Assembly: GCA_045118335.1 (NCBI GenBank)
Contig: JBGUXY010000053.1
Coordinates: 19,365 to 83,364, forward strand
Direction of reading: 5' to 3'
DNA from: Eggerthellaceae bacterium
GTDB taxonomy: Bacteria; Actinomycetota; Coriobacteriia; Coriobacteriales; Eggerthellaceae
Length of the DNA: 64,000 nucleotides
A program made the position numbers and the translations under genes. Below the pieces are notes generated by a model. It ran no database searches. It was not told where the DNA came from and saw only the letters and a list, made by a program, of their open reading frames with translations. Positions 6,581 through 34,724 of the stretch are shown here, one piece after another (the first letter of the stretch is position 1; every line of letters begins with the position of its first letter).

Positions 6581-6800
6581 TAAACGCTCCTTTGCTGCTG
6601 TTTGGCGTTTCATTCTATCAGGGCAGTGGCGCCAGTCGTTATGCCAATTATCGGCATTGCGTTACGCCTAGAACCGATAGCCAACTATCAGTTGCCATAA
6701 AATGGGTATCCCTTGTTGTGGCTCGAGAAAAATGTGACTTTGAAACAGCAGGGAATAGATGCATACTGTTCTACGATTGCATCTTTTAAGGAGGTATCTC

Positions 6801-7613
6801 ATGGAGTCGTCGTGCACCTGTCCAAGCTGCGGGAAGATCGTGCAACAGCAAGCCTTGTTCTGTCCGAATTGTGGTGCAAGCATTGCGCCAGGTTCACCTG
6901 TGGCCAGCGATGGCCCTAGCGCCATTCCCCAGCCGACCACAGACGTTGTTGAAAAGGCAGCTCAAAACGTATCGGCAACTCAGAACGCTGCTGGCGAAGC
7001 GATGCCGATTGAAACTTGGCCACCCCAGGCGCAGCAGCCGATGCAGGCTCCTGTTATCGACCAGACGCGGGTCGCGCAAGCGCCTCAACCTTATCCCTAT
7101 GCGCCCGCGCAGCCAACCGGGCAGTTTGGCGCTTCAAGCGCTCCCGCGCCGATAGACAAGTACAAGACGCTGGGAGGGTGGTTGCTGGTATTCGTCATCT
7201 TGAACATCATCGATGCGCTCAGCGGTTTTGGACAACTTGTCCAAAGCTTGTCGGCGGGGATGGGCCCAAACGTCTTTTTCGTCCTCGTTATGCTCGTCGA
7301 AATAGCCTTTGATGTGGTGTTCGTGGTCTTCATCGTCGGCCGCAACGTCAACGTGCTAAGGCTCTTCCAGGCTGGAAAGGTAATTATCGGCGTTTTGCAG
7401 GCAATCATGAATCTAACCGCCATACCAGAGGCTATGTACTATGGAAGCCGAGCCATGCTGGGTGGGATCATCGCCCAAACCGCTGGCACCCTGGTTGGCG
7501 CTGGGGTGGGTCTGGTTCTTCTGACGATGTATTTCTGCAAGTCGGTGCGAGTACGTACGTACATGGGGTCCACCGAATACCAGGACAGGGCTTTCTTCCG
7601 CATCGGCGTATGA
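6801..7613 (+). CDS. Zinc-ribbon N-terminus plus multi-pass membrane protein, unknown function
   Basis: Track ORF 6759..7613. ATG 6801 sits behind AAGGAGG. MESSCTCPSCGKIVQQQALFCPNCG (CxxC..CxxC) is followed by a P/Q/A-rich linker and several hydrophobic helices. Confidence 0.6.
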   Translation: MESSCTCPSCGKIVQQQALFCPNCGASIAPGSPVASDGPSAIPQPTTDVVEKAAQNVSATQNAAGEAMPIETWPPQAQQPMQAPVIDQTRVAQAPQPYPYAPAQPTGQFGASSAPAPIDKYKTLGGWLLVFVILNIIDALSGFGQLVQSLSAGMGPNVFFVLVMLVEIAFDVVFVVFIVGRNVNVLRLFQAGKVIIGVLQAIMNLTAIPEAMYYGSRAMLGGIIAQTAGTLVGAGVGLVLLTMYFCKSVRVRTYMGSTEYQDRAFFRIGV

Positions 7614-8943: not shown

Positions 8944-8977
8944 CGCGTCATTCGTGAATATCTTCTGGAAATGAGGG

Positions 8978-9006
8978 CTCGGTCAGCGGATGTTCCGTTG
9001 ACCGAG
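8978..9006 (+). terminator. Stem-loop after metY (8-bp stem CTCGGTCA/TGACCGAG)
   Basis: The inverted repeat was read directly. The downstream sequence is only weakly T-rich. Confidence 0.4.
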
Positions 9007-9027
9007 TGCCTTTGCGCTTCGTATACT
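8998..9027 (+). promoter_or_regulatory. Candidate sigma70-type promoter for rplM-rpsI
   Basis: TTGACC (8998-9003), an 18-nt spacer, then TATACT (9022-9027). This implies a leader of about 170 nt before rplM. Confidence 0.35.
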
Positions 9028-9204
9028 TTCAAAGTTGCTTTCAAAAGCCCCGTAACGCAGCTCTTGTTTCGGAACGGTGGATGGAATGTCCAGACCGGAA
9101 GCCGTGCTGGCGTAGGAACCCAGCGCCGGAGCACCTGCACTTTTGAAAAACGACATGCCTGCGAGGCCATAAGCCAAGCAGGTGCCATCGCAATGGAGGA
9201 AACA

Positions 9205-9639
9205 GTGAAGACGTATTACGCAAAGCCCGGCGAAGTCGAGCGCGAATGGGTCCTCATCGATGCGGAAGACCAGGTTTTGGGTCGCATCGCTACCGAGGCC
9301 GCTCGCATTCTGAAGGGCAAGCACAAGCCGCAGTACACCCCGCACGTTGACACGGGCGACTTCGTCGTCATCATCAATGCCGACAAGATTCGCCTCACCG
9401 GTACCAAGGCTGCTCAGAAGACCTACTATCGTCACAGCGGTTATCCCGGTGGTCTGAAGAGCGAGACGTTCGCCGAGGCCATGGCCAAGCATCCCGAGCG
9501 CGTGGTCGAGCATGCCGTGAAGGGCATGCTGCCCAAGAACACGCTCGGCCGCAAGCAGGGCATGAAGCTCAAGGTCTATGCCGGCCCCGAACATCCGCAT
9601 GCGGCGCAGAAGCCCCGCCAGATCAAGATTGGAGAATAA
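9205..9639 (+). CDS. rplM: 50S ribosomal protein L13
   Basis: Track ORF 8971..9639. [62 protein letters not shown] aligns with E. coli L13 from residue 1. GTG 9205 lies 5 nt after GGAGG, and ATG 9193 is the alternative start. Confidence 0.95.
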
Positions 9640-9642
9640 CCC

Positions 9643-10035
9643 ATGGCAGGTGAAGCAGCTTACATCGGCACCGGCCGCAGGAAGAATGCTGTCGCTCGCG
9701 TTCGCCTGGTTCCGGGTACCGGCAAGGTTACCGTCAACGGCAAGGATGCGCTGACCTACTTCGGCCGTCAGGCTCTGGTCGACTTCGCGCTCATGCCCTT
9801 CAAGGTTACCGACACCGAAGGTCATTTCGACGTCATCGCCCGCTGCAACGGCGGCGGCGTGGGCGGCCAGTCCGGCGCCCTGCGTCACGGCATTTCCCGT
9901 GCTCTTCTGGAGGCTGGCGAGTATCGCGCCGAGCTGAAGAAGGCTGGGTATCTGACCCGCGACAGCCGCATGGTCGAGCGCAAGAAGTACGGCCTGAAGA
10001 AGGCCCGCAAGCGCCCGCAGTTCAGCAAGCGCTAA
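9643..10035 (+). CDS. rpsI: 30S ribosomal protein S9
   Basis: [28 protein letters not shown] ... C-terminal [12 protein letters not shown]. The gene lies 3 nt after rplM. Confidence 0.95.
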
Positions 10036-10360: not shown

Positions 10361-10438
10361 AGGGCTTGTTACGTGGTTCAAGAATGCTGCTATGATAATT
10401 GCAGTGGAATGTGCGTTCGCTGAGAGATGGGTGTTTTC

Positions 10439-11770
10439 ATGGGTCATAGCGCTGAGCTTCGTGTGTACAAATGTCCCGCGTGTGGCGGTGCGGTGTCGTA
10501 TGATGCTGCGTCGGAGAAGTTAGCGTGCCGTTGGTGTGGCAACGATTTCGATGCGGAGGGGCTTGAAGCTACGGTCGTGTCGGGTGGTTTGAACGGATAC
10601 CTGTGTCCAGAATGCGGTGCGGAGCTCATGTCGGACGATTTCATCGCTGCGACAACCTGCCCGTATTGTGGCAGCAATCAGGTTGCACCCCATCGGTTCG
10701 AAGGCGATTTCAAGCCAGATGGGATCATTCCCTTTTCCATCACCCGCACGCAGGCGCTGAAAAACTATGAACAGACCCTGGCGGAAAAGGAGCTTCTGCC
10801 CGACGACTTTGCGACCAGATCGAGCATAGCCTCGGTGCAGGGCGTGTACGTGCCTTACTGGCTCTTTTCCGGAACGGTTGACTTCGATTTCACGTTTTAC
10901 TGGACAGACAACAGGAAAGACAGCGACTTGTGGGGCTACAAGCGTCGTGTGGGCACATACGAATACACTCAGGTTCCCGCCGATGGGTCCAGGCGCATGC
11001 CCGATGACATGATGGATTCCGTGGAGCCCTTCCAGTTCGATGCCCTCGTGCCGTTTTCGGACGAATACCTGCCCGGTTTCGTGGCGGAGCGCTACACGAT
11101 GGAGCCCGATGCCGTGCGCGAACGCGCCGACCTGCGTGCTAAGAACACGTCTGTGAGAGCCGTGAAAGAGACGCTGGATCTTGATTCGTGGCACTCGAAA
11201 CTCCTCGAGCAGAAGCGGTCGTCCGCCGTTGCGACGTGCGATGGCATCGAGCAGGCGCTGTTGCCCGTGTGGCTCATCGTCGTGCGATATCGCGACCAGA
11301 GCATCCTCGTGGGCGTGAACGGGCAAACGGGCAAAGTCGCCGCAAACCTGCCGATTGACGAGCAGAAGCAAAAGCGCCACCTGCACAAGAAAGGCCGGTT
11401 CGATTTCTGGATGATGTTCATCATCGCTGCAATTATAGGCTTCGGAGGAGCGTTCATCGTCGGCCTCGACCTTCGGGGTGACGTATGGATGTATGGCATG
11501 GAGGAGATAAGAACCAACCCGAGCCTTCATCGCGATTTCATCTTGTCAATCCTGAAGATAACCGGTCTGGTTCTGCTCCCGTTTGTGGCGGGCGCCTTCA
11601 ACCTGCTTGTCTATCGTCCGATTTACAAGGCCAAGATGACTAACTCGATGCAGAACGTGCGCGAAGCTCAGAACGCCGAGGCTTATGGTCGTGGTGCTTT
11701 GAACTTGACGCTGGAAGAATCGAAGAAGGGTCCCATCAGGGACGAAAACAACTGGCCTCCATTGGAATAG
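10439..11770 (+). CDS. Zinc-ribbon-rich, C-terminally membrane-anchored protein, unknown function
   Basis: Track ORF 10427..11770. There are four CxxC knuckles in the first 80 aa (CPACGG, CRWCGN, CPECGA, CPYCGS), then a large soluble domain and hydrophobic helices near the C-terminus (FWMMFIIAAIIGFGGAFIVGL, ITGLVLLPFVAGAFNLLVY). Confidence 0.65.
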   Translation: MGHSAELRVYKCPACGGAVSYDAASEKLACRWCGNDFDAEGLEATVVSGGLNGYLCPECGAELMSDDFIAATTCPYCGSNQVAPHRFEGDFKPDGIIPFSITRTQALKNYEQTLAEKELLPDDFATRSSIASVQGVYVPYWLFSGTVDFDFTFYWTDNRKDSDLWGYKRRVGTYEYTQVPADGSRRMPDDMMDSVEPFQFDALVPFSDEYLPGFVAERYTMEPDAVRERADLRAKNTSVRAVKETLDLDSWHSKLLEQKRSSAVATCDGIEQALLPVWLIVVRYRDQSILVGVNGQTGKVAANLPIDEQKQKRHLHKKGRFDFWMMFIIAAIIGFGGAFIVGLDLRGDVWMYGMEEIRTNPSLHRDFILSILKITGLVLLPFVAGAFNLLVYRPIYKAKMTNSMQNVREAQNAEAYGRGALNLTLEESKKGPIRDENNWPPLE

Positions 11771-12023: not shown

Positions 12024-12242
12024 ATGTCTGTAGAGAAAGAGCCCCTGCGCAGCGAATTGCTCGAGTCCGTTTCGGGTGGTGCAGACGTTGAGCTTGCCGA
12101 CGATTATCAAAGCAAGTGTCCCAAGTGCGGGAGCACCAACGTAACGATGATTCGCGTTGAGCACGAGATCTCGTCTTATCTTGTCGCCGACTTCAAGTGC
12201 AATGTTTGCGGAACGTATTATATGGACATAATACCCAAGTAG
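12024..12242 (+). CDS. Small peptide: double-glycine leader plus CX2C-X23-CX2C zinc-ribbon-like core (paralog A)
   Basis: Track ORF 11994..12242. ATG 12024 lies 5 nt after GAGAGAGGA. Sequence MSVEKEPLRSELLESVSGG|ADVELADDYQSKCPKCGSTNVTMIRVEHEISSYLVADFKCNVCGTYYMDIIPK. The leader has L(-12), L(-7), V(-4) and GG(-2,-1). Confidence 0.6.
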   Translation: MSVEKEPLRSELLESVSGGADVELADDYQSKCPKCGSTNVTMIRVEHEISSYLVADFKCNVCGTYYMDIIPK

Positions 12243-15801: not shown

Positions 15802-16132
15802 TCCTATGCTGCCTTTCTAGTCGCAAGCCATGCTCATTATATGATTGCAGTTTCGCTAGCGCTGCTGAAAAACGTAGCTTTAAGGGAAATGTTCACGGGT
15901 CTTCTCCTGGCGCTACACGTTCGAAGTGCATTGGGCTTGCCAACGGCGGATGCAAATTATTTGACAACGGTCTTAAAAGACGCTCACCGTGCGGAAAAAT
16001 GCTGTTGTTCAAGTCGTTTGGGGTCGCAAGTGCCCAGCGGGTAGTTTAATGTCGGATATTACGCTTACCCTGAAGAGCTGGGGAAAACGCGCAGTTCACC
16101 TACTGCGATGCAGAGCTAGAGGAGCAGCTGGC

Positions 16133-18223
16133 ATGGTTGATATCACCGAAAACTACGGGTCCATGGTCTTCAGCGACCGCACGATGCGCGAGCGCATCCC
16201 GTCCGTGACATATAAAAAGCTTGCCAAAACCATCAAGGAAGGCAAGCCGTTGGACCTGGAAGTGGCCAATGCCGTGGCGCACGCCATGAAAACCTGGGCC
16301 ATCGAAAACGGCGCCACGCACTACACGCACTGGTTCCAGCCGCTTTCCGGCATCACGAGCGAAAAGCACGACAGCTTCATCGAGCCGACAGGCGACGGCG
16401 GTGCCATCACGAAGTTTTCCGGCAAGGAGCTCATCCAGGGCGAGCCCGACGCTTCCAGCTTCCCTTCGGGCGGCTTGCGTGCCACGTTCGAAGCCCGTGG
16501 CTACACGGCATGGGACCCCACGAGCTTTGCGTTCATCAAGGACGAGGTCCTGTGCGTGCCCACCGCGTTTTGCAGCTATACGGGCGAGGCGCTGGACAAG
16601 AAAACGCCACTGTTGCGCTCCATGAAGGCCATCGACGAGCAGGCCAGGCGCGTGTTGTCGTTTTTCGGGGAAGCGGGACATCGCGTGGTTCCCACCGTGG
16701 GAAGCGAGCAGGAATACTTTCTCATCTCCGAGAAAGACTACGAGCGCAGGTCCGATCTGATGCTCACCGGCCGCACGCTTTTCGGCGCACCGCCGTGCAA
16801 GGGCCAGGAACTCGAAGAGCACTACTTCGGCGCCATACGGCCCACGGTGAACTCCTTCATGAAGGAGCTAGACGAAGAGCTGTGGAAGCTGGGCGTGCCC
16901 GCCAAGACCAAGCACAACGAAGTGGCTCCCTGCCAGCATGAGCTTGCCCCGGTGTTTTCAGAATGCAATCGTGCCATCGACGAGAACCTGCTCACCATGG
17001 AGCTGATGAAGCTCATCGCATCGCACTACGGTCTGGTATGCCTGCAGCATGAGAAGCCGTTCGCGGGCATCAACGGAAGCGGCAAGCATGACAACTGGTC
17101 GCTTTCCTGCGACGGCACGAACCTGTTGGAACCTGGTGAGACCCCGCAGTCTAACTTGCGGTTCCTGATTTTCTTAAGCTGCATCGTTGCTGCCGTTGAC
17201 GACTACCAGGAATTGCTACGCATGTCCATTGCGTCGGCTGGCAACGATCACCGCTTGGGTGCCGACGAGGCCCCGCCCGCCATCGTTTCCATTTTCCTCG
17301 GCGATGACCTGGGTGAATTGGTGGAAGCGTTCATCCACGACTGGACGTACAAGGGCGTGCAGAAATCCACGATGCACTTGGGCGTGGACGTGCTGCCCGA
17401 TTTCACGAAGGATAACACCGATCGCAACCGCACGAGCCCCTTTGCCTTCACCGGCAACAAGTTCGAGTTCCGCATGCCGGGCAGCCAGGTGAACCTTGCT
17501 GATGCGAACATGATTCTGAACACAGCGGTCGCTCACGAGCTGAAGCTTTTCGCCGATGAGATGGATCAGGTGAAAGATTGCGATTTCCGCGAAGCAGCGT
17601 ATGACTACATCAAACAGTCCTTCGCCAGCCATCGGCGAATTATCTTCAACGGTAACGGCTATTCTGAAGAGTGGCATGAGGAGGCCGCTCGACGTGGGTT
17701 GGCCAACCACCGCACGACGGCCGACGCGCTGCCCTGTTTCGTGGACCAGAAATCGCTGGACCTGTTTGCCGAATTCGGCGTGCTCACGGAAAGTGAAGCC
17801 TATAGTCGGTACGAAGTGAAACTCGACAAGTACATCAAGCTCATGAACATCGAGTCGAACGTGATGGAGCGCATGGTGCGACGTACATACCTGCCTGTGA
17901 TCAGCGCATATTCTACAAAGGTTGCGAAAGGTATCAGCACCGTGGTAGATGCCATGCCGCAGGCCCTGCTGGAATACGAGCGCCGTGAGCTCACGCTCCT
18001 TACCGAAGGCGTGACCGAAATATACACTGCACTCGACGCCTTGGCCGAAGCCCATGCGCACGCAAAGGCCATCGAGGACTCGCAAGAGATGGCAAACGCC
18101 TATGCCCACCAGGTCATTCCCGCCATGGAGCGCTTGCGTTGCGCCATCGACGCCATGGAGCCTATAGTCGCGCGCGACTACTGGCCCGTTCCCACCTACA
18201 ACGACATACTCTTTTATGCTTAG
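16133..18223 (+). CDS. glnN: Glutamine synthetase, type III
   Basis: Track ORF 15989..18223. ATG 16133 follows GAGGAG. The product is about 696 aa. The N-terminus [30 protein letters not shown] and [20 protein letters not shown] are typical of GSIII. Confidence 0.9.
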
Positions 18224-18238: not shown

Positions 18239-19183
18239 ATGGATATCTGGAACAAGGAAAAGCAGCAAGCGTTGGTCTCGGCGCTACGTGATGCCGTGGG
18301 AATGGAAAACATTCTGCTTGACGAGCCTATGTCAAAGCATACGACCTTCAAGATCGGCGGGCCGGCGGATGCGTACGTGGTGCCGCAAACCATCGAAGAC
18401 CTGGCGCGAGTTTGGCGTCTGTGCAAACAGGCTGCTGCTCCCGTGCGCATAATCGGGTGCGGTAGCGACTTGCTCGTGTCTGATTCCGGCTTGCGGGGCG
18501 TGGTGGTGCAGGTTTGCGAGAATCTCTCCAACATCGACGTACAGGATACGACGCTGCGCGTGCAAGCGGGTGCCACGAACGAGCAAGTAGCTCAAGCTGC
18601 CCTTGAAGCGGGCTTGACTGGTTACGAGTTCGCCTGCGGCATTCCCGGCACGGTCGGTGGCGCCGCCATCATGAATGCAGGTGCCTACAATGGCGAGTTC
18701 AAGAACGTGTGCGTGGAGTTGACCTGCATCAACCTCGAAGGAGACCTCGTCACCGTTACCCGCGAAGATGCCGATTGGAGCTATCGTCATTCCATGATGT
18801 CTGACGTTGGCTACGTGGTGGCCGAAGCCGTGCTGCAACTGCAGCCTTCCGATTGTGGGCAGGTTCGCGCAACCATGGACGACCTTCAGGCGCGTCGCTC
18901 GGAAAAGCAGCCGCTCGAGATGCCGAGTGCCGGTTCCACCTTCAAGCGACCCGAAGGCCATTTTGCCGGCAAGCTTATCCAAGACAGCGGCATGCAAGGT
19001 CGGTGCGTTGGAGGCGCTCAGGTTTCCACCAAACATGCGGGTTTCGTGGTCAACGCCGATGGTGCTACGGCCGAAGACGTGCGCAACCTCATCGCGCTCG
19101 TGCAAGAGGAAGTGCAACGGCAGTTCGGCGTCGCTCTCGAGCCGGAGGTTCGCATGTGGGGCTTTGACGATACCGTCGATTAG
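18239..19183 (+). CDS. murB: UDP-N-acetylenolpyruvoylglucosamine reductase
   Basis: Track ORF 18227..19183. MSKHTTFKIGGPADAYVVPQ ... GSTFKRPEG ... GGAQVSTKHAGFVVN. Confidence 0.9.
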   Translation: MDIWNKEKQQALVSALRDAVGMENILLDEPMSKHTTFKIGGPADAYVVPQTIEDLARVWRLCKQAAAPVRIIGCGSDLLVSDSGLRGVVVQVCENLSNIDVQDTTLRVQAGATNEQVAQAALEAGLTGYEFACGIPGTVGGAAIMNAGAYNGEFKNVCVELTCINLEGDLVTVTREDADWSYRHSMMSDVGYVVAEAVLQLQPSDCGQVRATMDDLQARRSEKQPLEMPSAGSTFKRPEGHFAGKLIQDSGMQGRCVGGAQVSTKHAGFVVNADGATAEDVRNLIALVQEEVQRQFGVALEPEVRMWGFDDTVD

Positions 19184-19210
19184 CCCCATTGCGCAAAGAC
19201 ACCATGACAG

Positions 19211-19240
19211 CCCCAGCTTATCAAGCTGGGGTTTTTCTTT
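19211..19240 (+). terminator. Rho-independent terminator after murB
   Basis: CCCCAGCTT-ATCA-AGCTGGGG followed by TTTTTCTTT. Confidence 0.8.
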
Positions 19241-19502
19241 CATGTGAAAGCCATAGTAAGGGGCAGTCCCTTCTCATAACCTAGATTTTAAGATTATTGG
19301 CTGCTGCCAGGTGTTTGCAGCTCTGTCGCTATCTGATGGTACCCGAAGTGCACAAGTACGCACAGAAAGAGGGACTGAACGATTATGCAGAGTTTTAAAC
19401 TACGCTTTCGTTTTCTTCCAGGGTGCAACTGCTTCAGTTATTTTGGCACGAAGCGCTTGTTCCCCGAAACGGTTTCGCATGATGTTCGTAAGATTAGACG
19501 AG

Positions 19503-19516
19503 GGATCGTACGATCC
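19503..19516 (+). promoter_or_regulatory. Perfect 14-bp palindrome in the leader of peptide paralog B
   Basis: GGATCGTACGATCC, 34 nt upstream of ATG 19550. It could be an operator or an RNA hairpin. Confidence 0.3.
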
Positions 19517-19549
19517 TCCGTGACAAAGCCATCAAAAAGGAGCGTGACC

Positions 19550-19774
19550 ATGGATCTTCAGGACAACGCCAAGAAGCTATCAACCGACGATCTTCAGCAG
19601 GTTTCCGGGGGTGCCGGTGAGCATCTCGGTTCCGGCAAGTTCTACCCACCCTGCCCAGAATGCGAATGCACTGATGTGTTCTGTATCACTAACTGGTTTG
19701 ATGGTGACGGTCATCTCTACTATGAATTGCATTGCAACGTTTGCTACAACGAATGGGTATGGCAGGAATACTAA
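19550..19774 (+). CDS. Small peptide: double-glycine leader plus CX2C-X23-CX2C zinc-ribbon-like core (paralog B)
   Basis: Track ORF 19385..19774. ATG 19550 lies 7 nt after AAAGGAG. Sequence MDLQDNAKKLSTDDLQQVSGG|AGEHLGSGKFYPPCPECECTDVFCITNWFDGDGHLYYELHCNVCYNEWVWQEY. The leader has L(-12) S(-11) D(-8) L(-7) V(-4) GG. Confidence 0.6.
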   Translation: MDLQDNAKKLSTDDLQQVSGGAGEHLGSGKFYPPCPECECTDVFCITNWFDGDGHLYYELHCNVCYNEWVWQEY

Positions 19775-19924
19775 GCCTGGAAAACGAGTTCGGGACGACC
19801 TTCTGGGCCTTGCGAAAGTCCTCTCCCCTGCCTCTCTCGAAGCCCGTCGATGCCAGTTTCCAACAACCTAGATCGTAAGACCGTTAGCTGCCATGATGGT
19901 CAGGTTTACTGGCCGTCAGGTAAG

Positions 19925-19990
19925 GCGATGTTACTGTAACTGGAGGCCGAATGGGGCGGATAAGGCTTACCGAAGCGATGTTACTGTAAC
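19925..19990. repeat. Two identical 16-bp direct repeats, each containing the palindrome GTTACnGTAAC, exactly 50 bp apart
   Basis: GCGATGTTACTGTAAC at 19925-19940 and 19975-19990. Confidence 0.8.
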
Positions 19991-20425
19991 CTTGTATCAC
20001 CTATTCGTAACGAATGGCGCAGCTCACGTCGGTAGGCGGGGGACATGCGGGATGCTTGCCCTCTATGATGGCGTTGAGCTGGGGAAATGCCAATCAATCG
20101 TGAGAGGAGACCCGGAAGGGGGGCGAATCCCCGCGTCCAACTACAGAAACATCGCTCCGATGTGCGATGAGGGCTCGCATTAAGCTTGTTTTACAGGAAC
20201 ATCGCATCGCCGATTGCACGCCCGCATACCAGACTCCTCAGCTCGGTAAACTCTTCAATCTTCGATTCTTCGTTTCCGATAATCTCGTTTATACGCAGCA
20301 AGGAACCATCTCTTTATGGCCTTCCTTTAAGAAAACGGAAAGGTTTGCGTGTGGTTCGAGAAAGAAGCGGCCTCTAGAGTTGAACCATGAAGTGAAGTCC
20401 GCACCGTATGGGCAGGAGGCAAGGT

Positions 20426-21715
20426 ATGTGGACGAGAATAGAATTAAAGGAAAAGGCGAAGGTTGCCTTGAAGGGCAATTATTGGAAAGCGGTGCTGGTG
20501 GGAGTGCTGCTCCTGTTCGCTGCTGGCGGCATGGGCAGCTCGGTTTCGGGTTCGCCGTCCGCTGCGATTCCGGGGCTGTCGCTTTCCGATAACAACGATT
20601 CCAGCGTCGTCTACGACAACGATTACTACTACGACTACGATTACGACGATTACTACTATTTCGATGACGAGTACTATGACGAGTATTTCAACGATCTCGA
20701 CTCATATGACGTCGATAGCGGCTCCGACCTCCCGTTGATTGCGGTGGTCCTTACAGGATTGGGCCTGCTCGTGGTGTTTTTGGCCGTATTTGCCGTGATT
20801 CTGGCGATTGACATCCTCATCGCCAATCCGCTGCTCGTGGGCATTCGGCGGTTCTTCTTGCGCAGCTTGAACCAGAAAGCCGACGTGAAGGAAGTCACCT
20901 ATGCCTTCGACAACGGCAACTACGTGGAGCTCATCAAGACCATGTTCCTGCGCGATTTGTTCACCGTGCTGTGGTCTTTGCTGTTTGTCGTTCCGGGTAT
21001 CGTGAAATCGTATGAATACCGCATGATTCCCTATCTGCTGGCAGAAGACCCGTACATGACCAAAGACCAGGCCTTTGCCGAAAGCAAGCGCATGATGACC
21101 GGCCAGAAGTGGAACGCTTTCGTGCTCGACCTTTCTTTCCTGGGTTGGAACATCCTTTCCGCGTGCACGCTGGGCATTCTGGGCGTCTTCTACGTCGGGC
21201 CGTATCAGGCGCTCGCTAACGCGGCACTTTACGAGAAGCTGCGCTACGGCCTGCCCGCTCCGACCGATTCGCACTACGCTCCGACGGGGAAGGCGCCCGT
21301 CGCTCCTGCCAATGCTGCGCCGGTCCCACCGATATATGCAGCTCCGGTACAGCCCGTCGCTGGCGCTGCAAGGCAGGCTGCTCCCGTAGTGCCGCAAGGA
21401 GCCCCCATCGCAACCTATGCGAATTCGGTTATGCCAACAGAAGCGCCGGTTGCTCCCTTAACGGCTCCCGCCGCAGCGCAGGAAGCACCCACTGCATCTT
21501 CTGTTAACCCAGCCGCATCGTCGGATGTGCCCATTGCGCCTTACGCGAACCCGATTGCCGCAGCGCCAGATGCAGCCTCGGGAGTTTTCGAAATGCTTGA
21601 CGATACGCCCATGTCCCCGATGGCGTCTTGTGATGCGACCGTCGAAGACGACCCTGCAGTTGCGGACGCACCGGCAGATGACGGGGCTGTTGCAGGCGAT
21701 TGTGGGCAGGCGTAG
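20426..21715 (+). CDS. DUF975-like integral membrane protein with an Asp/Tyr-rich insert and an Ala/Pro-rich tail
   Basis: Track ORF 20408..21715. ATG 20426 lies 6 nt after AGGAGG. MWTRIELKEKAKVALKGNYWKAVLVGVLLL is typical of the DUF975 N-terminus. Confidence 0.75.
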   Translation: MWTRIELKEKAKVALKGNYWKAVLVGVLLLFAAGGMGSSVSGSPSAAIPGLSLSDNNDSSVVYDNDYYYDYDYDDYYYFDDEYYDEYFNDLDSYDVDSGSDLPLIAVVLTGLGLLVVFLAVFAVILAIDILIANPLLVGIRRFFLRSLNQKADVKEVTYAFDNGNYVELIKTMFLRDLFTVLWSLLFVVPGIVKSYEYRMIPYLLAEDPYMTKDQAFAESKRMMTGQKWNAFVLDLSFLGWNILSACTLGILGVFYVGPYQALANAALYEKLRYGLPAPTDSHYAPTGKAPVAPANAAPVPPIYAAPVQPVAGAARQAAPVVPQGAPIATYANSVMPTEAPVAPLTAPAAAQEAPTASSVNPAASSDVPIAPYANPIAAAPDAASGVFEMLDDTPMSPMASCDATVEDDPAVADAPADDGAVAGDCGQA

Positions 21716-24419: not shown

Positions 24420-26219
24420 CTATTCCAGGTAGGCGCCGGTTTGGCGGTTCCACAGGTGTGCGTACTCACCGCCGGCTTCGATAAGCTGGGCGTGCGGTCC
24501 GTCTTCGACCACCTTGCCGTTTTCCAGCACCACGATGCGGTCCAGGCTTGCAACGGTGGACAGGCGGTGTGCCACGACGATGGATGTGCGTCCGGCCATG
24601 AGCTTCGCCAACGCGTCTTGCACCAAGTGCTCGCTTTCGGAATCGAGCGCGCTCGTTGCCTCGTCGAGCACGAGGATGGGGCAGTTGGCCAACATGGCAC
24701 GCGCAATGGCGATGCGTTGGCGTTGCCCGCCCGAGAGCTTGATGCCACGCTCGCCCGTGACGGTCTGGAAGCCCTGCGGCAGCTTCTCGATGAACTCGAG
24801 CGCGTTTGCCTGTTCGGCCGCGGTACGGATTTCCTCCATCGTTGCATTGGGCTTGCCATAGCTGATGTTTTCCGCGATGGTGCGGTGGAACAGCAGCGCC
24901 TCTTGCGGCACATAGGCGATATTGCGTCGCAGGCTTTGTTGCGTACAATCGGCGACGTTTTGACCATCTACCAGGATCTGGCCTTCCTGAATGTCGCTCA
25001 GGCGGAGCAAAAGCTTTGTGAGCGTGGTTTTCCCCGCGCCGCTCATACCCACGAGTCCAATGCGCTGACCTGCAGGAATGTGCAGATCGAAGCCTTCGAA
25101 CACGCGGGTGAGCGCACCGCCGTCAACATAGGAGAAGCCGATGTCCACAAAGTCGATGTCGCCGCGGATCACCTGCATGTCGGGAGCGCCGGGCGCATCT
25201 GCTACCAGGCGGGGCTCGTCGAGTATCTCGGTCATGCCGCTCGCATCACCGAATGCGCGGTTCAGCCGCTGAAGGCCGGCGTTGATGAAGTTAAACTGGT
25301 TCGTGACGCTGTAGGTGTAGGTGAACATCATCACCAGCGTACCGGGGGTTATGCCAAACCATGCATTACCGCCCGAGATGAACACTGCTACGACACTCAT
25401 GATCACGAGTGCGATGCAGGCTGTCACGATACCGCGCATGAGGCTTGCCATCATGCGTTTGCTGTCGCGGGCGACAACCTCTCGATTGGCGGCATCGAAC
25501 AGGTCGCGCTCGTAATCCTCGCGGCCATAGGTTTTCACGGAAAGGATGTTGGCAACGCTGTCGGAAAGCTCGCCGGATAGGTTGTTTTGCGCGCTTGCTG
25601 CCTGCTCGTTGAGGTTGAGGATGCGCTTGTACATGCGGTAGCTCACAAACGCGTATATGGCCAACATGAACATGAGGATAACGGTGTAGAGTGGCACGCG
25701 CGGCCCCAGTAGCAGGCAGATGAACACGATAGCTTCGATAAGCGGCAGCACTGGCCAGGTAATCACCTCTATGAGCTGGTTGTACGCGTTCATGTATTTG
25801 CTTGTCTGGCTCACGAGCGTTCCGCCGAAGCGATTCGAATGGAAGCTCATCGACTGGTTGCACAGCGCGTCGAACGCTTGCGTGGCCAAGTCGTAGTTCA
25901 CGGCGATTTCCAGCTTCCACAGCGTGTAGTCCTGTAGCTTGCTGAAGCCCTGTCCGAACAGGTTGATAAGAACAAGCGCCAAGATGTACGGTCCGAACAC
26001 GGGGAATACTTGGTCGGCCGATACCGGGTCGGCCGCCACGCGGTCGACGATCAGGCTCATCATGAAGGGGTTGGCATAGGTGAGCAAAAAGCCGAATCCG
26101 ATGGTGGCAAGAACGAGTGTCACGAAATAGCCCATGTGGTTTTTGGTTGCCTGCCAATAAAAGTGTATGGTTCGCCGTGCGGTGGAAGGCATTGCTGGTT
26201 TCTTGGCGGTGCTTGTCAT
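24420..26219 (-). CDS. ABC exporter, fused permease + ATPase (MsbA/ABCB-like)
   Basis: Track ORF 24420..26456. Probable start is ATG 26219 (MTSTAKKPAMP...). Six TM helices, Walker A GMSGAGKTT, signature LSGGQRQR, Walker B ILVLDEATS. No C39 peptidase domain. Confidence 0.9.
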   Translation of the reverse strand: MTSTAKKPAMPSTARRTIHFYWQATKNHMGYFVTLVLATIGFGFLLTYANPFMMSLIVDRVAADPVSADQVFPVFGPYILALVLINLFGQGFSKLQDYTLWKLEIAVNYDLATQAFDALCNQSMSFHSNRFGGTLVSQTSKYMNAYNQLIEVITWPVLPLIEAIVFICLLLGPRVPLYTVILMFMLAIYAFVSYRMYKRILNLNEQAASAQNNLSGELSDSVANILSVKTYGREDYERDLFDAANREVVARDSKRMMASLMRGIVTACIALVIMSVVAVFISGGNAWFGITPGTLVMMFTYTYSVTNQFNFINAGLQRLNRAFGDASGMTEILDEPRLVADAPGAPDMQVIRGDIDFVDIGFSYVDGGALTRVFEGFDLHIPAGQRIGLVGMSGAGKTTLTKLLLRLSDIQEGQILVDGQNVADCTQQSLRRNIAYVPQEALLFHRTIAENISYGKPNATMEEIRTAAEQANALEFIEKLPQGFQTVTGERGIKLSGGQRQRIAIARAMLANCPILVLDEATSALDSESEHLVQDALAKLMAGRTSIVVAHRLSTVASLDRIVVLENGKVVEDGPHAQLIEAGGEYAHLWNRQTGAYLE

Positions 26220-26393
26220 GTGCGTTCCTGTTCGTAGTGCTAAGTTCCGTTCAATACGATACCACAGCCGTTTCCTGTGATGATGGGGTGCTGCAATGGT
26301 GGATTCTCTGTCGATTTGTTGTCGAGAAACACCCAAATGAGCGACAAAAAGCGCCAATGAGTTGCTTATTCTACTATACGGTGAAAATGAGTA

Positions 26394-26422
26394 TTGACGC
26401 TCGCGATAACCAATCCTATCTT
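26394..26422 (+). promoter_or_regulatory. Candidate promoter for the YkvI-TetR fusion gene
   Basis: TTGACG (26394-26399), a 17-nt spacer, then TATCTT (26417-26422). Confidence 0.3.
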
Positions 26423-26478
26423 CCACGATATTCATTATTTGAGTTGGTTTCTGCAACTAGGAAAGGAGTGCGCTGACG

Positions 26479-32608: not shown

Positions 32609-33802
32609 ATGGATTCGACCGCTCGTCTGACGCGCGGATGCGTGTTGTGCTCGCTTGTCCTCTTTTTCGTGATGCTGTCTGCAGGCTGGATGGCGATGCC
32701 TGCGGTTGCCTGGGCGGAAGAGGGCGTGTTCGGCGAGCAAGATGGTGAAGTCGACAACGACACGGCGGGCAACGTGGTCATGGCGGGCAATTCCGTAAGC
32801 GTTACGCACGATGTGCAACGCGATGCCATGCTGGCAGGACGCGAGGTCAAAGTTGCCGACGTATCGGTTGCCGGTGACGTTCTTGCTGCAGGACAAACCG
32901 TGCGCGTGGCGGATTCTCGGATAGCTGGCAACGTTCGTGCAGCGGGGGATGCTTTGGTCGTCGAGAGCGTGGACGTTGCAGGTAACGTGACCGCCTGCGG
33001 GAACAGCGTTGAAATCGGGGGCGATTCGAAAGCGGCGTCGATATACGCTTTTGGCAGCTACCTCGCTTATGAAGGAACGGCGCAATACGTTGCGCTTTCG
33101 GGGCAGCAGGTGCAATTCGATGGCGAAGTCGACGGAGATGTGCATATCGATGCGAGTTCGGTTGCGATTGGCGAAAACGCGCGGGTGACGGGCACGCTTA
33201 CCGTGGAGGGGGCGCAGCCCGATGTCGCCCCCGGTGCCCAGGTGGAGTCGATGAACGTGCAGGCTGCCGATGAGGGAAGCGTTGCGCAGAGCTTCCTTGC
33301 CTCTTTGGTCAACGCCATCGTGCTTCTTTTCACCTTGATAGCCACCATCGCGGTCATCTGGTGGATAGCTCCTGGCGCAGCGCAGGATTCCCTGTTCATG
33401 TTCCGGGCGCGTACCGCACCCATGATTGTGACCGGTGTGGTGGCTTTGCTGGCAATGCCGTTCGCGATAGCCGTCTTGCTGGCAAGCGGAATCGGCATGC
33501 TGTTGGCGATCGTGCTCATATGCCTGGTTGTAGTTATGGCCGTGTTGGGGATGCCCTTCATGTGCGCTGCCATATCGCGACGCATCATGCGCGGTTCTCG
33601 GGAATGGGTCGTTGTGGCAATGGCGGCAGCTATAGCAGGGTTCATGCTGAGCGTGCCCATTGCCAACATGCTTGGAATGCTGTGTGGCTGCGTGTACTTT
33701 GCGGGTTATGTGCTGCAGCTTCTTTTCCTCAAGATAAGCGCCAGGAGTGCCATGCGCTCTTCGAAAGCCAGCGCCGGAAACGAGCAGGCGGGCGAACGCT
33801 GA
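32609..33802 (+). CDS. Secreted repeat (beta-helix/bactofilin-like) domain plus C-terminal multi-TM domain, unknown function
   Basis: Signal peptide ending AVAWA|EE. Repeated V/A-G-D/N-V units (AGNVVMAGNSVSV, VAGDVLAAGQTVRV, IAGNVRAAGDALVV ...), then 4-5 TM helices. Confidence 0.55.
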   Translation: MDSTARLTRGCVLCSLVLFFVMLSAGWMAMPAVAWAEEGVFGEQDGEVDNDTAGNVVMAGNSVSVTHDVQRDAMLAGREVKVADVSVAGDVLAAGQTVRVADSRIAGNVRAAGDALVVESVDVAGNVTACGNSVEIGGDSKAASIYAFGSYLAYEGTAQYVALSGQQVQFDGEVDGDVHIDASSVAIGENARVTGTLTVEGAQPDVAPGAQVESMNVQAADEGSVAQSFLASLVNAIVLLFTLIATIAVIWWIAPGAAQDSLFMFRARTAPMIVTGVVALLAMPFAIAVLLASGIGMLLAIVLICLVVVMAVLGMPFMCAAISRRIMRGSREWVVVAMAAAIAGFMLSVPIANMLGMLCGCVYFAGYVLQLLFLKISARSAMRSSKASAGNEQAGER

Positions 33803-33881
33803 AAATAGTTGCGCAACGAGCTGCGCCGTCAAAGCGGTATCTTTTGGGCATAAGGAAGAGCTTGAACGAAAGAAGGCTTCA

Positions 33882-34724
33882 GTGTTTTGCCCGAAATGCG
33901 GAAAAGACCTGCTTGAAGATGCGAAGTTCTGCCCGAGATGCGGAGCCGGGATTGCGGAGTGCGATTTTGACAAGGCTCCCCATGCAATTGAAGGCCAACA
34001 ATCTGGGTATGCAGTGCAACCTTCAACGACATTGGGGGGCGGCCGGTTTGCCTATGCGGGTCAAGCTGGCGCACTTCGTCGGCAGGGGGCTTTCGCCGCA
34101 GCGGCGCCTGCTAACGTGCAGGTACCCAACGTCGCCAAGGTAGCGGCTCGCTCCAGCAGCGAACCTGTTGCTCGCCGGACGCCGAAGGCAACTGCATCCA
34201 CGAGCGTCTTCACCCCTGTTGGCATTGCAGCGCGCATTGCCACCGTGCTAACGGTTGTTCTCATGTTCATGCCGTGGCTGCGAGTGGACGTATTGGAAGA
34301 GCTGCAGGGATATGCGTCGCTTCTGGGTTACGACATTCCAGCAAAGACGAGCTTCACCATGCTCAATGTGGATGCCGTCACGAGCACGCTCGACCTGATT
34401 TCCTCTTCCGATTCCTACAGCGCGCTTCACGCAGTCTTCTATGGCTTCTGGATTGCCGCCCTGGTGCTCGCGGGCGCTGGTCTGGTGCTTTCCTTTACGG
34501 GCAGGAAATCCACGCGGATGCTCGTCCCCGGCGCCATCGCCGCAACGCTAGTGGCGCTGCTGTGGTTTGTCGCGATAACGAACCTTAATGCGCATTACGC
34601 CAGCCAAATGACTCAACTCATCGGTTTCGACACGCAGTTCTTCTCGCTGCCTTGGGCGGTTTGGGCTACGGCAGTCATGGGCATTGTCACGGCGGTGCTG
34701 GGTTTCGCCGGCAAACGCAGCTAG
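33882..34724 (+). CDS. Zinc-ribbon N-terminus plus membrane protein, unknown function
   Basis: Track ORF 33747..34724. GTG 33882 lies 5 nt after GAAAGAAGG. VFCPKCGKDLLEDAKFCPRCG is followed by a linker and 4-5 TM helices. Confidence 0.6.
   Translation: MFCPKCGKDLLEDAKFCPRCGAGIAECDFDKAPHAIEGQQSGYAVQPSTTLGGGRFAYAGQAGALRRQGAFAAAAPANVQVPNVAKVAARSSSEPVARRTPKATASTSVFTPVGIAARIATVLTVVLMFMPWLRVDVLEELQGYASLLGYDIPAKTSFTMLNVDAVTSTLDLISSSDSYSALHAVFYGFWIAALVLAGAGLVLSFTGRKSTRMLVPGAIAATLVALLWFVAITNLNAHYASQMTQLIGFDTQFFSLPWAVWATAVMGIVTAVLGFAGKRS

What the first reader, a model, noticed from the sequence alone, without database searches (positions are those of the whole stretch)
19550..19774. Second, unlinked paralog of the GG-leader zinc-ribbon peptide with identical knuckle spacing
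The 74-aa product has the leader KKLSTDDLQQVSGG (L-12 S-11 D-8 L-7 V-4 GG) and then the core CPEC-X23-CNVC. Aligned on VSGGA, paralog A and B have 11 versus 12 residues before the first knuckle. Both have exactly 23 residues between knuckles, share the same second knuckle (K/H)CNVC, and carry aromatic-rich 9-10-aa tails. The intervening residues differ almost completely, and B has three extra Cys. This pattern of a conserved scaffold with a diversified surface is what is seen in families of secreted effector or signal peptides. The gene is a solitary unit between the murB terminator and a gene-poor degenerate stretch.
Basis: partly seen in the sequence, partly recalled or inferred. Interest (0 to 1): 0.7.

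Follow-up and report, generated by a model that had tools for sequence, protein, structure and literature searches.

The report
Orphan double-glycine-leader zinc-ribbon peptide gene
This is a real small gene in a gut Eggerthellaceae bacterium whose product has a secretion/cleavage tag followed by a 53-residue zinc-ribbon mini-protein; it belongs to a widespread family that the Pfam and NCBIfam libraries and the held literature do not name, and whose relatives sit next to peptide exporters or radical-SAM enzymes.

Summary
Window 19550-19774(+) encodes a 74-aa peptide (B) with a good ribosome-binding site. It has a 21-aa double-glycine leader that passes the NCBIfam bacteriocin_sig cut-off, and a 53-aa core, CPEC-X23-CNVC. 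A paralog (A, 12024-12242) has the same layout; both cores are 53 aa. One detail is wrong: B has two extra Cys, not three.

A and B belong to a real family without a dedicated model: about 170 clusters, 158 of 169 short hits with a GG leader plus two knuckles. The same core is fused either to a short bacteriocin-type leader or to a 48-aa Nif11-like leader. The core is a TFIIS/NrdR-type zinc ribbon (AF2 pLDDT about 90; rmsd 1.0 Å to NrdR). Relatives occur in tandem arrays of up to 10. One array sits beside an NHLP-type peptidase-ABC exporter, and two loci hold radical-SAM enzymes.

The 64-kb window has no exporter or maturase, and B is absent downstream of murB in 80 related species. The most likely reading is an orphan precursor that a C39 exporter encoded elsewhere cleaves and exports.

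The 23-residue spacing is modal, not invariant (13-35). A coarse dN/dS test shows purifying selection. The upstream 129-aa extension is refuted. The core's net charge of -8 argues against a classical cationic bacteriocin.

The parts
19550..19774 (+). Peptide B precursor gene (74 codons + TAA)
   Evidence: ORF and translation. The exact product is on record on an NCBI contig of 92,843 nt. A 99%-identical copy with the same flanks occurs in another metagenome (L090).
19536..19542 (+). Ribosome-binding site AAAGGAG, 7 nt before the ATG
   Evidence: Read directly from the sequence.
19550..19612 (+). Double-glycine leader, residues 1-21 (MDLQDNAKKLSTDDLQQVSGG)
   Evidence: TIGR01847 bacteriocin_sig 16.4 bits against a cut-off of 15.7. 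Invariant among alleles. Disordered in the AF2 model, pLDDT below 50.
19613..19771 (+). Predicted mature core, residues 22-74 (53 aa, 6.27 kDa, pI 4.2, net charge -8): zinc-ribbon domain
   Evidence: AF2 pLDDT about 90 with three beta-strands. The Foldseek top hits are the NrdR zinc ribbon, 41 columns at rmsd 1.0 Å. The family profile hits RPC10/TFIIS/RPA12 zinc ribbons at E 1e-8 to 1e-4. Mass and charge.
19652..19663 (+). Zinc knuckle 1, CPEC (Cys35, Cys38)
   Evidence: CPxC is found in 146 of the 158 family members that fit the leader + two-knuckle pattern (summing the CP.C types in the listed top 10).
19733..19744 (+). Zinc knuckle 2, CNVC (Cys62, Cys65)
12024..12242 (+). Paralog A precursor gene (72 aa; 19-aa leader + 53-aa core, CPKC-X23-CNVC)
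   Evidence: P0002 is 100% identical, 72 aa, from NCBI.
19209..19233 (+). Intrinsic terminator of murB, upstream boundary of the B unit
19498..19521 (.). Palindrome ACGAGGGATCGTACGATCCTCCGT about 30 nt upstream of the B start codon; possible operator or 5'-UTR hairpin (inferred)
   Evidence: I3.

Best explanation
B is a genuine, independently transcribed small gene. It encodes the precursor of an exported zinc-ribbon mini-protein.

Proposed mechanism:
1. The 74-aa precursor carries a 21-aa double-glycine leader of the class-II bacteriocin / NHLP-N11P type.
2. A peptidase-C39-containing ABC transporter (PCAT), encoded elsewhere in the genome, recognises the roughly 13 C-terminal leader residues, cuts after Gly21 and exports the 53-aa core.
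3. The core folds as a three-stranded TFIIS/NrdR-type zinc ribbon. Cys35/38/62/65 hold one Zn(II), or form disulfides if oxidised.
4. The ribbon presents a variable surface (linker, inter-knuckle strands, aromatic tail) to an extracellular target.

The core is soluble and strongly anionic. It is therefore more likely a receptor-specific effector or signal than a membrane-permeabilising cationic bacteriocin.

Shown: gene reality, paralogy with A, family membership, leader type, predicted fold, and PCAT or radical-SAM linkage in relatives. Inferred: cleavage, export in this organism, zinc binding and extracellular function.
For: Leader:
- B passes the curated TIGR01847 cut-off.
- Its LSxxDLxxVxGG matches the motif-2 consensus that Haft et al. 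2010 tabulate for TIGR01847 and N11P leaders (PMC2887384).
- LahT150, a PCAT protease domain, needs only the C-terminal ~13 leader residues (PMC6363468).

Modularity:
- The same core is fused at the GG junction to two unrelated leader types, short (18-21 aa) and 48-aa Nif11-like. 158 of 169 short hits have a GG leader plus two knuckles.

Export linkage:
- In L002, five tandem short-leader paralogs lie beside a transporter scoring 925.8 bits on TIGR03796 (cut-off 853.3), with Peptidase_C39, and a HlyD-like TIGR03794 fragment.
- Haft et al. report this transport cluster next to N11P genes in Eggerthella lenta, the same family as this window's organism.

Precursor-like genomics:
- Tandem arrays of 3-10 paralogs.
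- Allelic changes fall only in the core.

Fold:
-.

Real gene:
- RBS, the same locus at 99% identity in a second sample, and five cluster members with all six Cys conserved.
Against: - No PCAT, stand-alone C39, HlyD-like protein, maturase or obvious immunity gene lies in the 64-kb window. This rests on Pfam scans of about 40 ORFs and tblastn with a PCAT. The ABC exporter at 24420-26456 lacks a C39 domain.
- Most relatives with 10-kb flanks also lack an adjacent PCAT.
- B is not conserved downstream of murB in 80 Eggerthellaceae species, so it could be a recent orphan without a partner.
- Paralog A does not reach TIGR01847.
- A zinc-dependent fold as exported cargo has no precedent in the papers searched.
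- The core's net charge of -8 is atypical of known class II bacteriocins.
- Zinc binding, cleavage and secretion are all untested.
Confidence: 0.58

Rival explanations
1. B is a RiPP precursor. Its cysteines are substrates for a modifying enzyme, such as a radical-SAM/SPASM thioether-forming maturase, rather than zinc ligands. The 'zinc ribbon' pattern would then be the unmodified ground state.
For: - In L091, ten family members flank a radical-SAM/SPASM gene.
- L097 has a homologous rSAM (27% identity, E 3e-54) beside another Nif11-leader peptide and a family member.
- In one search, 96 of the 158 pattern-matching members carry one or two extra Cys between GG and knuckle 1. In the listed sequences these are mostly long-leader members.
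- There are weak sub-threshold hits to TIGR04165 'Cys-rich peptide'.
- B itself has two extra, allele-conserved Cys.
Against: - The window holds no radical-SAM, LanM, cyclodehydratase or other maturase.
- A and B have the short leader and lack the post-GG Cys.
- The short-leader array in L002 is accompanied only by transport genes.
- The knuckles are canonical CPxCG/CNxCG, and the profile matches experimentally zinc-bound ribbons.
- In L097 the rSAM's immediate neighbour is a different peptide.
Confidence: 0.15
2. B is a cytoplasmic small zinc-ribbon protein, or a stranded relic of a former bacteriocin locus. Its GG motif is not processed in this organism, and it acts, if at all, inside the cell, for example by binding nucleic acid or protein as NrdR/TFIIS ribbons do.
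For: - No exporter lies in 64 kb, and the neighbours are housekeeping genes.
- Leaderless and tandem-repeat versions of the same ribbon exist (P0012, P0025, P0047, P0049, P0061).
- The nearest folds are intracellular nucleic-acid-associated ribbons.
- Some relatives have lost a knuckle Cys (P0036, P0064), as expected of decaying copies.
- The core is acidic.
Against: - The leader is perfectly conserved among alleles while the core varies.
- Leader dN/dS is 0.29 in related arrays.
- The two leader types swap at exactly the GG junction.
- There is PCAT linkage in L002.
- The ORF and all six Cys are intact in five cluster members.
Confidence: 0.22
3. The real product is the 129-aa ORF starting at 19385, or the ORF is spurious.
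For: An in-frame ATG at 19385 gives a 129-aa ORF.
Against: - There is no RBS-supported start or homology for the extension.
- All homologs begin 18-21 residues before GG.
- L089 has a stop three codons upstream of the homologous Met.
- The 74-aa product is the one on record for the 92.8-kb NCBI contig.
- Family HMM E-value is 5.7e-27, although B was in the training alignment.
Confidence: 0.03

Closest known systems
Double-glycine-leader peptides exported by peptidase-containing ABC transporters (class II bacteriocins, competence and quorum peptides; TIGR01847 leader; PCAT/AMS transporters)
   Same: N-terminal leader of about 20 aa with the LSxxELxxIxGG pattern, here LSTDDLQQVSGG, above the TIGR01847 cut-off. 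Small size, paralogous copies and tandem arrays. Relatives lie beside a C39 ABC transporter.
   Different: The core is a cysteine-knuckle zinc-ribbon fold of 53 aa. It is anionic (-8) and hydrophilic rather than cationic or amphipathic. There is no linked transporter or immunity gene here.
NHLP / Nif11-derived (N11P) RiPP precursor families and their TIGR03794/03796/03797 export cluster (Haft, Basu & Mitchell 2010, PMC2887384)
   Same: Most family members carry a Nif11-like 48-aa leader ending in ELTDEQLEAVSGG. They form large paralogous arrays and are often unlinked from enzymes. One array sits next to a TIGR03796 transporter, and the paper reports the cluster in Eggerthella lenta.
   Different: B and A have the short leader, not the Nif11 domain. 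Even the long leaders score below the TIGR03798 cut-off (19-24 against 32.3 bits). N11P cores are short, low-complexity and hypervariable, whereas this core is a conserved folded domain.
TFIIS / RPC10 / RPA12 C-terminal and NrdR N-terminal zinc ribbons
   Same: CxxC-X(~20-25)-CxxC with a three-stranded sheet. Profile E 1.2e-8 to RPC10. Rmsd 1.0 Å over 41 residues to NrdR.
   Different: Those are intracellular domains of larger nucleic-acid-associated proteins. Here the ribbon stands alone behind a cleavable export leader.
Radical-SAM/SPASM-matured Cys-rich RiPPs (ranthipeptides/SCIFF, sactipeptides)
   Same: Cys-rich cores. rSAM/SPASM genes are embedded in or next to arrays of long-leader relatives.
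   Different: The window holds no such enzyme. The L091 enzyme is below every curated maturase cut-off. A and B lack the post-GG Cys typical of the rSAM-linked members.

Membership tests
Double-glycine (bacteriocin-type) leader peptides, TIGR01847 | N-terminal leader matching the bacteriocin_sig model and ending in GG | tested here: met
   B scores 16.4 bits against a cut-off of 15.7, residues 8-21. A shows the pattern LRSELLESVSGG but gave no TIGR01847 hit.
Double-glycine (bacteriocin-type) leader peptides, TIGR01847 | Cognate C39-peptidase ABC transporter in the locus or genome | tested here: not met
   None in the 64-kb window. Present beside relatives in L002. The rest of the genome was not available.
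Double-glycine (bacteriocin-type) leader peptides, TIGR01847 | Cleavage after GG and export of the core | not testable with these tools
   Needs an in-vitro C39 assay or supernatant mass spectrometry.
Class II (unmodified, membrane-active) bacteriocins | Cationic and/or amphipathic-hydrophobic mature peptide, with an adjacent immunity gene | tested here: not met
   B core has net charge -8, pI 4.2, GRAVY -0.44. 73% of short-leader cores are anionic. No small membrane gene is adjacent.
Zinc ribbon (TFIIS/NrdR type) | Two CxxC knuckles about 15-30 residues apart | tested here: met
   CPEC-X23-CNVC.
Zinc ribbon (TFIIS/NrdR type) | Three-stranded antiparallel sheet bringing the knuckles together | tested here: met
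   AF2 core pLDDT about 90, strands 43-50, 56-62 and 68-73. NrdR ribbon rmsd 1.0 Å. Profile hits to RPC10/TFIIS. This is a prediction, not a solved structure.
Zinc ribbon (TFIIS/NrdR type) | Stoichiometric Zn(II) binding by four Cys | not testable with these tools
   Requires metal analysis of purified peptide.
Nif11-like leader RiPP precursors, TIGR03798 | Leader of about 50-70 aa matching TIGR03798 or PF07862 | tested here: not met
   B's leader is 21 aa and gives no hit. Long-leader relatives score 19-24 bits against a cut-off of 32.3. One relative has a precomputed PF07862 hit.
Radical-SAM-matured Cys-rich RiPPs | rSAM/SPASM maturase encoded with the precursor | tested here: not met
   None in the window. 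Present with long-leader relatives in L091 and L097.

The most novel reading that the evidence does not exclude
The family is a previously undescribed class of exported metallo-mini-proteins. It would be a zinc-ribbon scaffold repeatedly recruited behind GG, bacteriocin-type or Nif11-like leaders in gut anaerobes (Eggerthellaceae, low-GC bacteria that are probably Firmicutes, termite-gut Actinobacteria). PCATs would export it as a folded or zinc-loaded domain, and radical-SAM enzymes would further cross-link it in one branch. The stable ribbon would display a variable surface for interbacterial antagonism or signalling. This would be the first zinc-ribbon cargo of a PCAT and a new RiPP-like scaffold.
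Probability: 0.35. Interest if true: 0.75.

Novelty: new variant of a known kind. Interest (0 to 1): 0.6.

Why it matters
Double-glycine-leader peptides are the main route by which Gram-positive bacteria release bacteriocins and quorum signals. Their known cores are short linear or enzyme-cross-linked peptides. A conserved, foldable zinc-ribbon domain behind such leaders is present in about 170 sequence clusters from gut and rumen metagenomes, yet it has no dedicated Pfam or NCBIfam model and no paper in the held library.

If confirmed, it would:
- extend the cargo range of PCATs to metal-stabilised mini-proteins;
- give genome miners a new precursor signature that current tools miss;
- provide a compact hyper-stable scaffold, with a branch that radical-SAM enzymes may modify.

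For this genome specifically, it flags two orphan precursors. Their processing machinery must lie elsewhere, which is directly testable.

Tried and rejected
- Word-indexed homolog searches with B and A alone found only near-identical alleles. The family appeared only with the exhaustive profile search.
- A genome-contig scan with the A/B alignment found nothing.
The A4 scan returned only a false relative, the C-terminal zinc ribbon of a phage-like ribonucleotide reductase (L088).
- Exact look-ups of P0002 and P0064 contigs were not on record.
- Synteny test: HMM and blastn over 80 Eggerthellaceae murB loci found no B homolog. The weak hits were a different membrane zinc-ribbon protein.
- The idea that 19858-20444 is a decayed tandem copy of the B unit was rejected. 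Only the 27-34-nt repeat aligns, and no family-like remnant appears in six frames.
- Rfam found nothing credible in 19100-20500.
- The LytTR system in the window is LytS/GAF-type, not a peptide-sensing HPK10/AgrC type.
- My first regular expression for the leader was wrong and was replaced.
- Literature searches for GG-leader or Nif11 zinc-ribbon peptides gave nothing relevant. The TMcin preprint and the Treponema AMP paper are unrelated.

Full report
OBSERVATION

The ORF at 19550-19774(+) encodes 74 aa: MDLQDNAKKLSTDDLQQVSGG | AGEHLGSGKFYPPCPECECTDVFCITNWFDGDGHLYYELHCNVCYNEWVWQEY. AAAGGAG lies 7 nt upstream of the ATG, and the murB terminator is at 19209-19233. A six-frame motif scan found one other ORF of this design, paralog A at 12024-12242(+): MSVEKEPLRSELLESVSGG | ADVELADDYQSKCPKCGSTNVTMIRVEHEISSYLVADFKCNVCGTYYMDIIPK.

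After VSGGA there are 11 and 12 residues before knuckle 1. Both have 23 residues between knuckles, with only 4 of 23 identical. Both have CNVC as the second knuckle, and tails of 10 and 9 aa. Both predicted mature peptides are exactly 53 aa. A and B are homologous: BLASTP gives 34% identity over 56 aa, E 7e-9. One detail is wrong: B has 6 Cys, two more than A, not three.

THE START CODON

The in-frame extension to 19385 (129 aa) is not supported.
- All homologs begin 18-21 residues before the GG.
- The B-like homolog in L089 has a stop three codons upstream of its Met.
- The exact 74-aa product is on record on an NCBI contig of 92,843 nt that also carries A.

A 518-nt contig from another metagenome (L090) is 99% identical across the gene and 266 nt downstream. 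The locus therefore recurs in nature.

ORGANISM AND SETTING

MurB's best matches are Eggerthellaceae and Slackia, at 70% identity or less. The window is thus from an Eggerthellaceae species that is not among the GTDB representatives scanned.

Within 6 kb of murB in 80 related genomes there is no B homolog. The weak HMM hits there are an unrelated membrane zinc-ribbon protein. The 19184-20407 stretch has no nucleotide similarity to those loci. G+C drops to 0.47-0.50 at both A and B, against 0.575 for the window.

Pfam and NCBIfam scans of about 40 ORFs show housekeeping genes only:
- AddA-type helicase, metA, and ribosomal-protein-like ORFs at 8971-10035 (not scanned against Pfam/NCBIfam; read from their translations);
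- type III glutamine synthetase (read from the translation of 15989-18223; not scanned) and murB;
- DUF975, an OmpR-type two-component system, and an MsbA-like ABC exporter without C39;
- PspA, MoeA, QueT, TauE, a LytS/LytTR pair, and HypF/HypD.

tblastn with a bona fide PCAT hit only generic ABC modules. B and A are therefore orphan genes here.

THE FAMILY

Word-indexed searches found only alleles. An exhaustive profile search of 1.84 billion representatives found 61 hits. A profile search of 5.8 billion proteins found 170 clusters at E<=1e-3.

Of 169 short hits, 158 have a GG leader plus two knuckles. Knuckle 1 is CPKC in 122 of them. The spacing between knuckles is 13-35, with mode 21 in long-leader and 23 in short-leader members. 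The '23' is therefore typical of B's subgroup but is not a family constant.

Two leader types are fused to the same core at the GG junction:
- a short 18-21-aa bacteriocin-type leader, as in B, whose subgroup starts MDxQDNAK;
- a 48-aa leader, M[RK]EELLKGLTEEQIKKVKACKSxEEILALAKAEGVELTDEQLEAVSGG. It resembles Nif11-type leaders but scores below the TIGR03798 cut-off.

B itself passes the TIGR01847 cut-off. No Pfam or NCBIfam model is specific for the family. The hits are generic zinc ribbons below threshold. Almost none of the cluster representatives carries a source name.

FOLD

AlphaFold2 with the family alignment gives a disordered leader (pLDDT below 50) and a confident core (about 90) with three strands. 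The Foldseek top hits are the N-terminal zinc ribbon of NrdR, 41 columns at rmsd 1.0 Å and 27% identity. The family profile matches the C-terminal ribbons of RPC10 (E 1.2e-8), TFIIS, RPA12 and RPB9. The core is therefore a canonical zinc ribbon.

CONTEXT OF RELATIVES

- Termite-gut contig L002 has five tandem short-leader paralogs beside a 719-aa transporter. The transporter has Peptidase_C39 and scores 925.8 bits on TIGR03796 (cut-off 853.3). A TIGR03794-like HlyD fragment is also present.
- L001 has eight tandem paralogs and no transporter in 11.5 kb.
- Low-G+C contigs carry arrays of seven (L083/84) or three (L085), or scattered copies (L086/87, L094), without a PCAT within 10 kb.
- In L091, ten paralogs flank a radical-SAM/SPASM gene.
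- L097 has a homologous rSAM (27% identity, E 3e-54) next to another Nif11-leader peptide and a family member.
- In one search, 96 of the 158 pattern-matching members carry one or two extra Cys just after GG. In the listed sequences these are mostly long-leader members, and A and B lack them.

Haft et al. 2010 defined the TIGR03794/96/97 export cluster by its co-distribution with GG-leader NHLP/N11P precursors. They noted it in Eggerthella lenta, and they noted that precursors can lie far from their enzymes. Bobeica et al. 2019 showed that a PCAT protease domain needs only the last ~13 leader residues.

SELECTION AND CHEMISTRY

Alleles of B and of A differ only in the core. The leaders and all Cys are invariant.

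In 12 termite paralogs, pooled Nei-Gojobori dN/dS values are:

| Partition | dN/dS |
|---|---|
| Leader | 0.29 |
| Linker | 0.20 |
| Knuckles | 0.07 |
| Inter-knuckle | 0.39 |
| Tail | 0.20 |

The inter-knuckle segment is the least constrained, but there is no gross signal of diversifying selection. Leader dS (0.47) is much lower than elsewhere (1.0-1.7), which suggests homogenisation or a constraint at the nucleotide level.

The B core has net charge -8 and pI 4.2. Of short-leader cores, 73% are anionic; of long-leader cores, 78% are cationic.

INTERPRETATION

The best-supported reading is that B is the precursor of a zinc-ribbon mini-protein, cleaved after Gly21 and exported by a C39-ABC transporter encoded elsewhere (confidence about 0.58).

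Rivals:
- a cysteine-modified RiPP (0.15), favoured by the rSAM-linked branch but not by A/B's own features or surroundings;
- an unprocessed cytoplasmic or relic zinc-ribbon protein (0.22), favoured by the missing transporter;
- a mis-called ORF (0.03).

The acidic, hydrophilic core argues against a classical pore-forming bacteriocin. A receptor-specific effector or signal is more plausible, but this is inference.

COMPARISON AND NOVELTY

The leader and the export logic are those of known GG-leader / NHLP-N11P systems. The core fold is a known zinc ribbon. The combination is what is new. Five full-text searches of the held literature found no description of it. I rate it a new variant of a known kind, with interest 0.6.

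Noticed in passing
window 19915-20215: Nested inverted repeats of GATGTT[A/T/C]CTGTAA: two + strand copies (19927, 19977; exact 16-mers 50 nt apart) and two - strand copies (20140-20153, 20190-20203; also 50 nt apart). The 301-nt stretch folds into one long imperfect hairpin (-117.7 kcal/mol, z = -4.07) and has no Rfam match. Promoter-like hexamers lie at its centre. It could be a MITE-like element, an invertible segment or a structured RNA. The first half is conserved in L090.
   Followed up: partly
window 19271-19304 and 19858-19891: A 34-nt direct repeat (74% identical) brackets the B gene. Its core AACCTAGATnnTAAGA occurs only at these two places in the window (0.08 expected). It could be insertion scars or a duplicated promoter or operator. 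No further similarity was found between the two flanks.
   Followed up: partly
L091 1-4608 and L097 4860-7425: Radical-SAM/SPASM genes are embedded in, or next to, arrays of Nif11-like-leader zinc-ribbon peptides: ten paralogs in L091. The two enzymes are 27% identical, from contigs of 35% and 60% G+C, and fall below every curated maturase cut-off. This is a possible new RiPP class.
   Followed up: partly
family-wide (proteins P0073-P0173): Many members, mostly long-leader ones, carry one or two extra Cys within about 1-6 residues after the GG cleavage site (for example GGCGGGKKCPKC, GGACIECIIKCPKC), giving an odd Cys count. The short-leader members, including A and B, lack it.
   Followed up: partly
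L001 4713-7020, L002 3462-4954: In termite-gut tandem arrays the leader has much lower synonymous divergence (dS 0.47) than the rest of the gene (1.0-1.7). This suggests gene conversion or a nucleotide-level constraint on leaders.
   Followed up: no
window 19498-19521: A near-perfect palindrome GAGGGATCGTACGATCCTCC lies between a TAAGAT -10-like box (19490-19495) and the B ribosome-binding site. It could be an operator or a 5'-UTR hairpin.
   Followed up: no
L081 7138-7539; L020, L032, L037, L042, L067 (about 1 kb downstream of murB): Several of the related Eggerthellaceae-like murB loci carry a conserved membrane protein about 1 kb downstream of murB (on the opposite strand in five of the six loci listed). 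It is about 115 aa with a split zinc ribbon around two transmembrane helices (LITAF-like layout). It is absent from this window, where B and the hairpin element occupy that position.
   Followed up: partly
   Followed up: yes
window 6759-7613, 10427-11770, 33747-34724: Three larger proteins in the window have N-terminal zinc-ribbon or double-zinc-ribbon domains followed by membrane or unknown regions. One of them ends 254 nt upstream of paralog A. They are not family members by HMM.
   Followed up: partly
proteins P0036, P0064 (B-like subgroup): Two close relatives of B have lost one knuckle cysteine (CPNYG; LFYRKC). They are either decaying copies or evidence that four-Cys zinc binding is dispensable in some members.
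   Followed up: no
L088 7329-7421: A phage-like class II ribonucleotide reductase ends in a zinc ribbon, GPPCPECECTTV...CDNCG, which mimics B's first knuckle region. It is a false positive of the pattern scan, not a family member.
   Followed up: yes
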